DNA of 51,465 nucleotides from a virus (lineage: Duplodnaviria; Heunggongvirae; Uroviricota; Caudoviricetes), in the IMG/VR virus record IMGVR_UViG_2872152978_000009; one strand, given 5' to 3'. A program made the position numbers and the translations under genes. The stretch's first letter is position 1. Every line of letters begins with the position of its first letter. The notes beneath the pieces are model-generated. The model had not been told where the DNA came from. It did no database searches and was given only the letters and a program-made list of their open reading frames with translations. This document shows positions 41,885 to 42,346 of the stretch, in pieces.

Positions 41885-41956
41885 TATTATTTACTCATGT
41901 TCTAACTGATTTAATATTTATATCGAACACTGATAATTATTCTATTGGTTAGCTAT

Positions 41957-42295
41957 ATGAACAAAACGATTTTATTCTGCACGATTATTGCCTTAACAGG
42001 ATGTAAATCTTTGGATTACGTAAAATCCGGAAAACCTGTAATGGAAGGTAATTCATTAAAAAATATTGATGAATTGTCAGGCTGCATATCCAGACAATGG
42101 GCTGGTAATGGAACACCTATAACATCCCTTCCTATTGAGAATGGGGTAAGCCTTTTAGTTCCACAGGCTATGGGGGGATATGATGTTGTGCTTGATATCA
42201 AAAAAGCAGGAAATGGCAGTAGTTTTACTCTTTATGAACGTGTACCAGCATTAACGCCAAAAATTTTTGCTGATAGTGTTAATGCATGTAAATAA
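41957..42295 (+). CDS. Putative lipoprotein (cargo gene between I and J)
   Basis: Signal peptide with lipobox LTGC (MNKTILFCTIIALTGC); AT-rich segment; own terminator downstream. Confidence 0.6.
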   Translation: MNKTILFCTIIALTGCKSLDYVKSGKPVMEGNSLKNIDELSGCISRQWAGNGTPITSLPIENGVSLLVPQAMGGYDVVLDIKKAGNGSSFTLYERVPALTPKIFADSVNACK

Positions 42296-42318
42296 TAGTT
42301 AATCCTGCCGTAACTCAT

Positions 42319-42346
42319 GAGCCGCCTTTTGGGCGGCTTTGTTGTT
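42319..42346 (+). terminator. Intrinsic terminator after the lipoprotein gene
   Basis: GCCGCC-TTTTG-GGCGGC followed by TTTGTTGTTT. Confidence 0.55.

What the first reader, a model, noticed from the sequence alone, without database searches (positions are those of the whole stretch)
41885..42346. Lipoprotein cargo gene with its own terminator between tail genes I and J
I and J are adjacent in lambda as recalled. Here an AT-rich insert encodes a 112-aa lipoprotein (lipobox LTGC) and ends in a strong intrinsic terminator just before J. Prophage-encoded envelope lipoproteins in tail regions often act in superinfection exclusion or as virulence or fitness factors expressed in the lysogen.
Basis: partly seen in the sequence, partly recalled or inferred. 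Interest (0 to 1): 0.5.

Follow-up and report, generated by a model that had tools for sequence, protein, structure and literature searches.

The report
Uncharacterised lipoprotein cargo gene before J
A lambda-like E. coli prophage carries an extra, foreign-looking gene for a small outer-membrane lipoprotein of unknown function between tail genes I and J, but the terminator after it belongs to the tail operon and is present in lambda itself.

Summary
ORF 41957-42295 encodes a 112-aa protein with a textbook lipoprotein signal (LTGC, Cys16). It lies in a 36% GC insert between I and J (flanks 57-59% GC) and is followed by a hairpin plus T-tract at 42319-42349.

One correction: the hairpin is not the cargo's own. 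Lambda and lipoprotein-less E. coli prophages carry the homologous hairpin in their 60-nt I-J spacer. Distant lambda-like phages have it too, with compensatory stem changes. The true insert is about 41885-42314.

The protein belongs to PHROG 914 (function unknown). It has no Pfam, NCBIfam or PADLOC match and is unrelated to Cor, Llp, mEp010 Lpp or Bor. The closest fold is the Francisella lipoprotein Flpp3, and only weakly.

The insert occurs in 337 of 5426 complete E. coli genomes. Relatives sit at other prophage sites: K|I, chaperone|tape-measure, downstream of cI, or antisense to head genes. That is typical moron behaviour.

The identical protein accompanies at least four different J receptor-binding ends, so it is not matched to the phage's own receptor.

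Most likely it is an envelope accessory factor, possibly for phage exclusion. Function is untested. It is a new member of a known kind, of moderate interest.

The parts
41236..41884 (+). Tail assembly gene I (left flank). Here it is split by a 7-bp tandem duplication GCAAACA at 41714-41720/41721-41727, so it is probably a pseudogene. PGAP-style start is 41275.
   Evidence: ORFs 41236-41754 and 41648-41884. Alignment to intact I of E. coli DA33133 shows the 7-bp gap. No complete E. coli genome matches this stretch above 98.6%.
41885..41956 (+). AT-rich 5' leader of the insert. Candidate weak sigma-70 promoter: -35 TTTACT at 41890-41895, 16-nt spacer, -10 TAATAT at 41912-41917. Weak Shine-Dalgarno (GGT) at 41947-41949.
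   Evidence: My own PWM scan puts it at the 96th percentile of 200-nt windows in the window. It falls below the 9/12 threshold of the consensus scanner. Both hexamers are invariant among 10 E. coli alleles, while 8 other leader positions vary. Promoter activity is inferred, not shown.
41957..42295 (+). Lipoprotein gene (112 aa, PHROG 914). Signal peptide is aa 1-15, with lipobox L13-T14-G15-C16 (codons 41993-42004). Lys at +2 predicts outer-membrane sorting. The mature protein is 97 aa with invariant Cys43 and Cys111.
   Evidence: and AF2 model at pLDDT 83.7.
42296..42314 (+). 3' end of the foreign insert. Homology to the lambda I-J spacer resumes at about 42313-42316.
   Evidence: Alignments of the window with lambda and three E. 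coli prophages.
42319..42349 (+). Resident I-J junction hairpin (GAGCCGCCT-TTT-GGGCGGCTT) plus T-tract TGTTGTTTAT. It is intrinsic-terminator-like, is shared with lambda, and is not cargo.
   Evidence: for the hairpin. for homology with lambda/O157/ST131/M7424 spacers. for conservation and compensatory changes in distant lambda-like phages.
42350..45841 (+). J ribosome-binding region (GGAG..GAGGA) and tail-tip gene J (42362-45841, 1159 aa). This is the right flank.

Best explanation
Anatomy (confidence about 0.9). A roughly 430-bp foreign segment (41885-42314) was inserted directly after the stop codon of tail gene I, upstream of the hairpin/T-tract that normally precedes J in lambda-like phages.

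It encodes a pre-lipoprotein. [quoted passage not shown] The result would be a compact 97-residue alpha+beta domain on a very short tether, probably stapled by a Cys43-Cys111 disulfide.

Expression (inferred). The gene lies in the sense direction inside the late operon, and the prophage has a Q-type antiterminator. It must therefore be transcribed late after induction, with Q-modified polymerase reading through the hairpin into J. In the lysogen, any transcript from the weak candidate promoter in the AT-rich leader would stop at the resident hairpin, giving a one-gene unit.

Function (my commitment, about 0.45). It is an envelope-modifying accessory factor that interferes with infection by incoming phages, or with loss of progeny on cell debris. 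It would do so by binding an outer-membrane or periplasmic component from the periplasmic side. This would work like Cor, Llp, Rtp45 or mEp010 Lpp, but with an unrelated protein. It is not tuned to the J receptor-binding domain of its own prophage.
For: The gene is real and constrained:
- Homologues share 48-62% identity in Klebsiella, Enterobacter, Kluyvera and Jejubacter.
- A profile search finds 125 cluster representatives, with three invariant Cys plus conserved W48, P27 and G63.
- E. coli alleles show 7 synonymous against 3 nonsynonymous variable sites.

Lipoprotein features:
- The lipobox rule is met here and in 54 of 58 family members, and +2 is never Asp.

Moron behaviour:
- The gene is absent from lambda.
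- The insert occurs at 349 places in 337 genomes, against 8163 lambda-type I genes.
- In a spread sample of E. coli junctions the I-J spacer takes only two lengths, about 60 or about 477 nt.
- GC is 0.36 against 0.57-0.59 for the flanks.
- Relatives sit at K|I, at chaperone|tape-measure, or amid other cargo. At K|I and chaperone|tape-measure they do bring a terminator that lipoprotein-less junctions lack.

Autonomous or lysogenic expression elsewhere in the family:
- In three Burkholderia-type prophages the gene lies directly downstream of a cI-like repressor on the same strand, and in two of these it is followed by a terminator.
- In another prophage it is antisense to head genes.
- In another it forms a divergent cassette in an early region.

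A Q-type antiterminator lies upstream on the same strand in this window.

Precedents:
- The HK97 gp15 moron, at the same chaperone|tape-measure junction, is an exclusion protein.
- Lipoproteins in the structural cluster of mEpimmI phages exclude phages, including lambda.
Against: - No experiment or annotation links PHROG 914 to any function.
- There is no PADLOC hit.
- There is no homology beyond the signal peptide to Cor, mEp010 Lpp, Bor or T5 Llp.
- The promoter is weak or uncertain, and so is the ribosome-binding site.
- The identical protein goes with at least four J C-terminal types. The type in this window is the commonest in E. coli irrespective of the lipoprotein. So there is no genetic signature of receptor matching.
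- Phage Fraca carries both Cor and a family member, so the two are not redundant.
- Some E. coli copies are frameshifted or truncated.
Confidence: 0.45

Rival explanations
1. Host-fitness or virulence lipoprotein, working like lambda Bor/Iss. It would be expressed in the lysogen and alter serum resistance, adhesion, envelope stress tolerance or colicin/antibiotic uptake, with no role in phage-phage competition.
For: It has the same genetic logic as bor and lom, which are lysogen-expressed envelope morons of lambda. lom lies 3.5 kb downstream, bracketed by terminators. The listed top E. coli hits are mostly human isolates. There is no coupling to the J receptor-binding end. The best fold match is Flpp3, a Francisella lipoprotein whose PDB entry 2mu4 is titled 'F. 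tularensis Virulence Determinant'.
Against: There is no sequence relation to Bor or to any Pfam family. Apart from one genomic-island copy, every context examined was a phage or prophage, with no core-chromosome copy seen, and the family spans many hosts. The Flpp3 similarity is only at fold level (TM about 0.5, 6-9% identity).
Confidence: 0.3
2. A purely lytic-cycle function. The gene would have no promoter of its own and be made only from the Q-antiterminated late transcript. It would act at or after lysis, for example by masking receptors on debris so that progeny are not wasted (one of the roles described for exclusion factors such as T5 Llp).
For: The gene is in sense orientation inside the late operon. 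No consensus promoter was found. The terminator is not its own. Exclusion factors are described as also preventing nonproductive phage adsorption to cell fragments produced after lysis.
Against: Family members that are antisense to structural genes, or sit behind cI, cannot depend on a late promoter. Where the gene sits at K|I or before the tape-measure gene it brings a terminator, which only matters for non-antiterminated transcription. There is no coupling to the J receptor-binding type.
Confidence: 0.12
3. A tail assembly or structural accessory protein of the tip complex, as its position between I and J might suggest.
For: Position only: it lies among K, I and J, or next to the tape-measure gene.
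Against: It has an export signal and lipobox, whereas tails assemble in the cytoplasm. It is absent from lambda and from about 96% of lambda-type junctions, whose tails are functional. Other members lie in immunity or early regions. Its base composition is foreign.
Confidence: 0.03

Closest known systems
HK97 gp15 moron (Cumby et al. 2012; reviewed in PMC3594210)
   Same: An accessory gene inserted in the tail operon of a lambdoid siphophage. It has foreign composition, encodes an envelope protein and is expressed from the prophage to block entry of other phages. Members of the present family occupy exactly the same chaperone|tape-measure junction in other prophages.
   Different: gp15 is a small inner-membrane YebO-like protein, not a lipoprotein. 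No Pfam family, YebO included, matches here. gp15 is described as having its own promoter and terminator, whereas here the terminator is resident.
Cor (phi80, N15, HK022, T1; PHROG 1119)
   Same: A small outer-membrane lipoprotein encoded in the tail/tail-fibre region of siphophages. It excludes phages by inactivating an outer-membrane receptor (FhuA).
   Different: Profile comparison aligns only the signal peptide and lipobox region. Cor is about 77 aa against 112 aa here. Phage Fraca encodes both proteins.
T5 Llp and Rtp Rtp45 exclusion lipoproteins (PMC9586334, PMC12685063)
   Same: Lipoproteins described as binding the periplasmic face of the phage's receptor (FhuA, LptDE) and abolishing RBP binding.
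   Different: They are much smaller (Rtp45 is about 6 kDa). There is no sequence match beyond the signal peptide, and neither appears among the listed fold matches. Here there is no linkage to the receptor-binding end of J.
mEpimmI Lpp021/Lpp010 (PMC11893012)
   Same: Lipoprotein genes inside the structural cluster next to J of temperate coliphages. They have been shown to exclude phages, and Lpp010 excludes lambda.
   Different: Lpp010 is 82 aa, lies on the opposite strand after J, and is unrelated outside the signal peptide. Those lipoprotein types follow the receptor used (OmpA, LamB).
Lambda Bor / Iss
   Same: A lipoprotein moron of a lambdoid prophage, expressed in the lysogen, with an outer-membrane location.
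   Different: Only the signal peptide aligns. bor lies near the lysis genes on the opposite strand.
Flpp3 (DUF3568) of Francisella tularensis
   Different: Identity is 6-9%. No family member matches Pfam DUF3568. The similarity is at the level of a common fold shared with DUF302, KA1 and BamC-N.

Membership tests
Bacterial lipoprotein (signal peptidase II substrate) | N-terminal signal peptide with a basic n-region, an uncharged h-region and a lipobox [LVI][ASTVI][GAS]C | tested here: met
   MNKTILFCTIIALTG|C has Cys16 and Lys3. A PROSITE PS51257-type rule matches here and in 54/58 family members. The Cys is invariant.
Bacterial lipoprotein (signal peptidase II substrate) | Actual acylation and LspA cleavage; outer-membrane sorting | not testable with these tools
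   Only the +2 rule can be applied. +2 is Lys here and A/S/T/K/G/E/V/L in the family, never Asp. This predicts the outer membrane.
Moron (Juhala/Hendrix sense) | An extra gene between two genes that are adjacent in related phages | tested here: met
   Lambda and most E. coli prophages have a 60-nt I-J spacer. This one has 477 nt.
Moron (Juhala/Hendrix sense) | Base composition different from the neighbours | tested here: met
   GC is 0.36 against 0.57/0.59 for the flanks. The same trend holds in seven other loci.
Moron (Juhala/Hendrix sense) | Own promoter | tested here: inconclusive
   The consensus scan finds nothing. A PWM scan finds TTTACT-16-TAATAT at the 96th percentile. The hexamers are invariant in 10 alleles. 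There are no expression data.
Moron (Juhala/Hendrix sense) | Own terminator | tested here: not met
   The hairpin after the gene is homologous to the one in the lambda/O157/ST131/M7424 I-J spacers, which lack the gene. It is conserved before J in distant phages. Relatives at K|I and before the tape-measure gene do bring a terminator.
PHROG 914 (unknown function) | Full-length match to the family profile | tested here: met
   E 7.3e-33 over residues 1-112 of the protein and 1-118 of 118 profile positions. All 58 distant relatives match the same PHROG.
Cor superinfection exclusion protein (PHROG 1119) | Homology of the mature domain | tested here: not met
   hhalign aligns residues 1-32 only, that is the signal peptide plus a few residues. 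Two of 58 members hit PHROG 1119, only weakly (E about 5e-4).
mEpimmI type-C exclusion lipoprotein (Lpp010) | Homology of the mature domain | tested here: not met
   hhalign aligns 16 columns of signal peptide only.
Bor/Iss | Homology of the mature domain | tested here: not met
   hhalign aligns 26 columns at the signal peptide, probability 43%.
T5 Llp | Sequence or fold similarity | tested here: not met
Known anti-phage defence systems (PADLOC) | Match to any PADLOC-DB model | tested here: not met
   0 families at E <= 1.
DUF3568 / Flpp3 | Sequence membership of Pfam PF12092 | tested here: not met
   No Pfam hit for the protein or for 58 relatives. There is fold similarity only.

The most novel reading that the evidence does not exclude
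PHROG 914 lipoproteins may be a new class of phage-exclusion factors that act independently of the receptor-binding domain. For example, they might obstruct the step at which a lambda-like tail tip or tape-measure protein crosses the outer membrane and periplasm. Separately, the conserved 'hairpin + T-tract + ATGG' cassettes found before H, I and J of lambda-like tail operons may be portable junctions at which such morons are captured and exchanged.
Probability: 0.12. Interest if true: 0.6.

Novelty: new member of a known kind. Interest (0 to 1): 0.35.

Why it matters
About 6% of complete E. coli genomes carry this identical, unannotated envelope protein (337 of 5426). Its family is spread through prophages of Enterobacteriaceae, Burkholderia-type hosts and a Pseudomonas phage, yet no member has a known function.

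If it blocks phage entry, it would be, to my knowledge, the first lipoprotein of a true lambdoid prophage shown to do so. The mEpimmI paper notes that no lipoprotein from a lambdoid phage has been reported to exclude lambda. It would then matter for predicting phage host range and for phage therapy.

The correction about the terminator also matters for annotation. A hairpin/T-tract directly before J is a conserved part of lambda-like tail operons, lambda included. It should not be read as evidence that an upstream ORF is an autonomous unit.

Tried and rejected
- Pfam, NCBIfam and PADLOC scans of the protein gave nothing. The only hit was VirB7, through the signal peptide, at E 0.08. A Pfam scan of 58 relatives also gave nothing.
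- tblastn against 50,697 phage records found only two distant hits, Fraca and LMessi.
- A profile search against PDB sequences found only signal-peptide-level noise.
- Two long 'relatives' in the profile search led nowhere: P0091 is an Ig_7 repeat protein and a spurious hit; P0115 matched no Pfam family and was not pursued.
- Literature searches for PHROG 914, for WP_001332187, and for lipoprotein/I/J/moron combinations found no paper on this gene. A search for a described I-J terminator in lambda found nothing relevant.
- An Rfam scan of 41700-42500 gave only a sub-threshold GcvB hit.
- MAFFT did not put the I-J hairpins in structural register. I therefore tabulated stem pairs from the loop outward with a script instead of using count of structure pairs.
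- I considered that the lipoprotein masks the prophage's own receptor. I rejected this as the specific model because of the lack of coupling to J C-termini.

Full report
**What is in the sequence**

The region 41885-42361 separates the stop codon of tail gene I (41882-41884) from the start of J (42362). It holds one sensible ORF, 41957-42295. The ORF has an ATG start and encodes 112 aa: MNKTILFCTIIALTGCKSLDYV...NACK.

The N-terminus has one Lys, an uncharged hydrophobic stretch and L-T-G-C, with the Cys at position 16. It satisfies a PROSITE PS51257-type lipobox rule.

GC drops to 0.30-0.39 across the segment against 0.55-0.60 on both sides. The gene is 0.36 GC and its 2-kb flanks are 0.57 and 0.59.

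Downstream lies GAGCCGCCT-TTT-GGGCGGCTT followed by TGTTGTTTAT (42319-42349). This was found by the terminator scan. It folds well and is one of the four strongest + strand terminator-like sites in 20 kb of late genes. The others lie after a head gene (33611), after J (45860) and after lom (46535).

**It is a real, constrained gene of an uncharacterised phage family**

- The only family hit is PHROG 914, annotated 'unknown function', matched full length at E 7e-33.
- Pfam, NCBIfam and PADLOC give nothing.
- Homologues at 48-62% identity occur in Klebsiella, Enterobacter, Kluyvera and Jejubacter.
- A profile search of 1.8 billion representatives finds 125 clusters, nearly all about 110-120 aa.
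- Across 58 distant members the lipobox Cys and two further Cys (C43, C111) are invariant. P27, W48 and G63 are nearly so.
- All 58 match PHROG 914 and none matches a Pfam family.
- Among 10 E. coli alleles the CDS has 7 synonymous and 3 nonsynonymous variable sites.
- Residue +2 after the lipid Cys is never Asp. By the established +2 sorting rule this predicts outer-membrane anchoring.

An AlphaFold2 model (pLDDT 83.7) shows a short helix, a long helix (37-50), a five-stranded antiparallel sheet and a C-terminal helix (103-111).

**It is cargo**

Lambda and more than 100 lambda-like phages match only the I and J flanks of a query spanning the region. In lambda, I and J are 60 nt apart.

In 5426 complete E. 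coli genomes the insert occurs at 349 places in 337 genomes. It is at least 95% identical everywhere and is annotated 'hypothetical protein'. Lambda-type I genes occur at 8163 places.

A query made of the I end joined to the J start returns two junction lengths in a spread sample: about 60 nt or about 477 nt.

In 60 IMG/VR E. coli loci the gene is always between I and J. More distant relatives sit elsewhere in lambda-like tail modules:
- Between K and I in L064, L072, L073 and in phages Fraca and LMessi.
- Between the tail chaperone and the tape-measure gene in L065-L070.
- Within a larger block of cargo in L063.

Still more distant members lie in other places:
- Immediately downstream of a cI-like repressor on the same strand, in three Burkholderia-type prophages.
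- Antisense to head genes.
- In a divergent two-gene cassette in an early region.
- In a genomic island.

This is the behaviour of a mobile accessory gene. Several of these positions can only be expressed independently of a late promoter.

**The terminator is not the cargo's own**

Aligning the window with lambda shows that homology stops at the I stop codon. It resumes about 5 nt before the hairpin. Lambda's 60-nt spacer reads ...GTGAAACCGCC-TGCG-GGCGGTTTTGTCATTTATGGAGCGTGAGGAATG.

Three E. coli prophages without the lipoprotein gene (O157:H7, ST131, M7424) have the same hairpin. Their loops vary and their stems are preserved.

Phages whose tail proteins are only 30-40% identical to these also have the element. 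Fraca, LMessi, L064, L072, L063 and L069 all carry a GC hairpin, a T-run and 'TTTATGG' 10-20 nt before the J start.

Read from the loop outward, ten I-J hairpins keep C-G pairs at stem positions 1, 2, 4 and 5. They switch between G-C and A-T at positions 3, 6 and 7, which are compensatory changes.

The real insert is therefore about 41885-42314. The gene simply lies upstream of a resident element.

Where relatives sit at K|I or before the tape-measure gene, they are followed by a hairpin/T-tract (6 of 7 co-directional tail-module cases). The corresponding junctions in the lipoprotein-less loci checked mostly lack one. Two of those hairpins (Fraca, L073) are of the very same CCACC-N4-GGTGG-T(n)-ATGG type as the I-J element. 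Fraca has a third copy before its tape-measure gene with no cargo. I record this as unexplained. These cassettes may be scars of morons or landing sites for them.

**Expression**

The window is a nearly complete lambdoid prophage. It has an integrase at 4-1131 (-), a Q-type antiterminator at 16686-17504 (+), a holin at 23761 (+), then the structural genes on the + strand.

By the established behaviour of Q-modified RNA polymerase, the late transcript should read through the hairpin. The lipoprotein would then be made late after induction whether or not it has a promoter. This step is inference.

For the lysogen the evidence is thin:
- The consensus scan finds no + strand promoter.
- My PWM scan finds TTTACT-16-TAATAT ending 39 nt before the ATG, at the 96th percentile for the window.
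- The two hexamers are invariant in 10 alleles, whereas eight other leader positions vary.
- The Shine-Dalgarno sequence is weak.

**Function**

I compared the family profile with characterised phage lipoproteins.
- Cor aligns over residues 1-32 only.
- mEp010 Lpp010, which excludes LamB phages including lambda, aligns over 16 signal-peptide columns only.
- Bor aligns over the signal peptide only.
- T5 Llp shows nothing beyond residues 1-19.

So the protein is not a member of any of these families.

The context arguments for a phage-exclusion role are as follows:
- The archetypal moron, HK97 gp15, is an exclusion protein. It sits at the same junction as some family members.
- Lipoproteins in tail clusters repeatedly turn out to be exclusion factors.
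- The cI-downstream position is a classical site for such genes.
- The very short tether would hold the domain against the periplasmic face of the outer membrane, as described for Llp and Rtp45.

Against a simple 'mask my own receptor' model:
- The protein, identical or differing by one or two residues, accompanies four different J C-termini in IMG/VR loci. Over the last 160 aa these show 41%, 62% or no detectable identity to the window's type.
- The window's J C-terminus is the commonest in E. coli (7638 places in 3404 genomes), mostly without the lipoprotein.
- Fraca carries Cor as well as a family member.

I therefore commit only moderately (about 0.45) to an exclusion role that is independent of the receptor-binding domain. 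A Bor-like host-fitness role comes second (about 0.3) and a purely late, progeny-protecting role third (about 0.12). A structural role is very unlikely.

**Verdict**

The cargo interpretation is supported. The functional interpretation remains open.

This is a new, uncharacterised member of a well-known kind, the envelope lipoprotein moron of a lambdoid prophage. Interest is moderate. The most useful by-products are the boundary correction and the conserved pre-J hairpin.

Noticed in passing
window 41714-41727 (gene I, 41236/41275-41884): A 7-bp tandem duplication, GCAAACA GCAAACA, frameshifts tail assembly gene I into two ORFs (172 aa and 78 aa). The otherwise identical DA33133 prophage lacks it, and no complete E. 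coli genome matches this stretch above 98.6%. One IMG/VR locus (L044) also shows a truncated I match. The prophage may be tail-defective.
   Followed up: partly
window 42319-42349; lambda NC_001416 15445-15504 (L086:746-805); L002, L003, L063, L064, L069, L072 before J: A GC-rich hairpin, a T-tract and 'TTTATGG' lie directly before the J start codon. The element is conserved from lambda to phages with 30-40% identical tail proteins. It shows compensatory G-C/A-T switches at three stem positions, and its loops vary freely. I found no description of it. Its role is open: terminator/insulator, mRNA-stability element or J translation signal.
   Followed up: partly
L002 (phage Fraca) 490-525, 6336-6386, 6991-7045; L073 7318-7384: Near-identical copies of the same hairpin cassette (CCACC-N4-GGTGG-T5-7-ATGG) precede the tape-measure gene, I and J in one phage. 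The copy before I follows the lipoprotein gene. They may be duplicated junction sequences involved in moron capture or loss.
   Followed up: partly
window 45860-45879, 45909-46508, 46535-46556: The Lom/Ail-family outer-membrane protein gene after J is bracketed by two strong terminator-like hairpins. This is the classical moron layout that the lipoprotein gene only half shares.
   Followed up: no
L002:5647-5994 (Fraca) and L063:7409-7855: Two further unrelated lipoprotein genes of unknown function (PHROG 2320 and PHROG 3152) sit right next to PHROG 914 members between K and I. A KilA-N gene does so in L064. The K-I-J junctions look like a hotspot for lipoprotein cargo.
   Followed up: partly
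L060:3279-3613, L061:7001-7335, L062:7001-7338; proteins P0002, P0007, P0018: Some E. coli copies of the lipoprotein gene are frameshifted or truncated, so the gene is decaying in part of the population.
   Followed up: no
window 50187-50855 (-) and 50912-51232 (+): Downstream of the side tail fibre and its assembly gene there is a 222-aa ORF on the opposite strand that, from its sequence alone, looks like a methyltransferase (not scanned against any family library). It is followed by a fragment repeating the C-terminal part of the tail-fibre assembly protein. This is more cargo and rearrangement at the prophage end.
   Followed up: no
window 42263-42292 (- strand): A promoter-like site on the minus strand (TTTACA-18-AAAAAT, 9/12) lies at the 3' end of the lipoprotein gene, pointing antisense. 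It is probably a chance match in AT-rich DNA.
   Followed up: no
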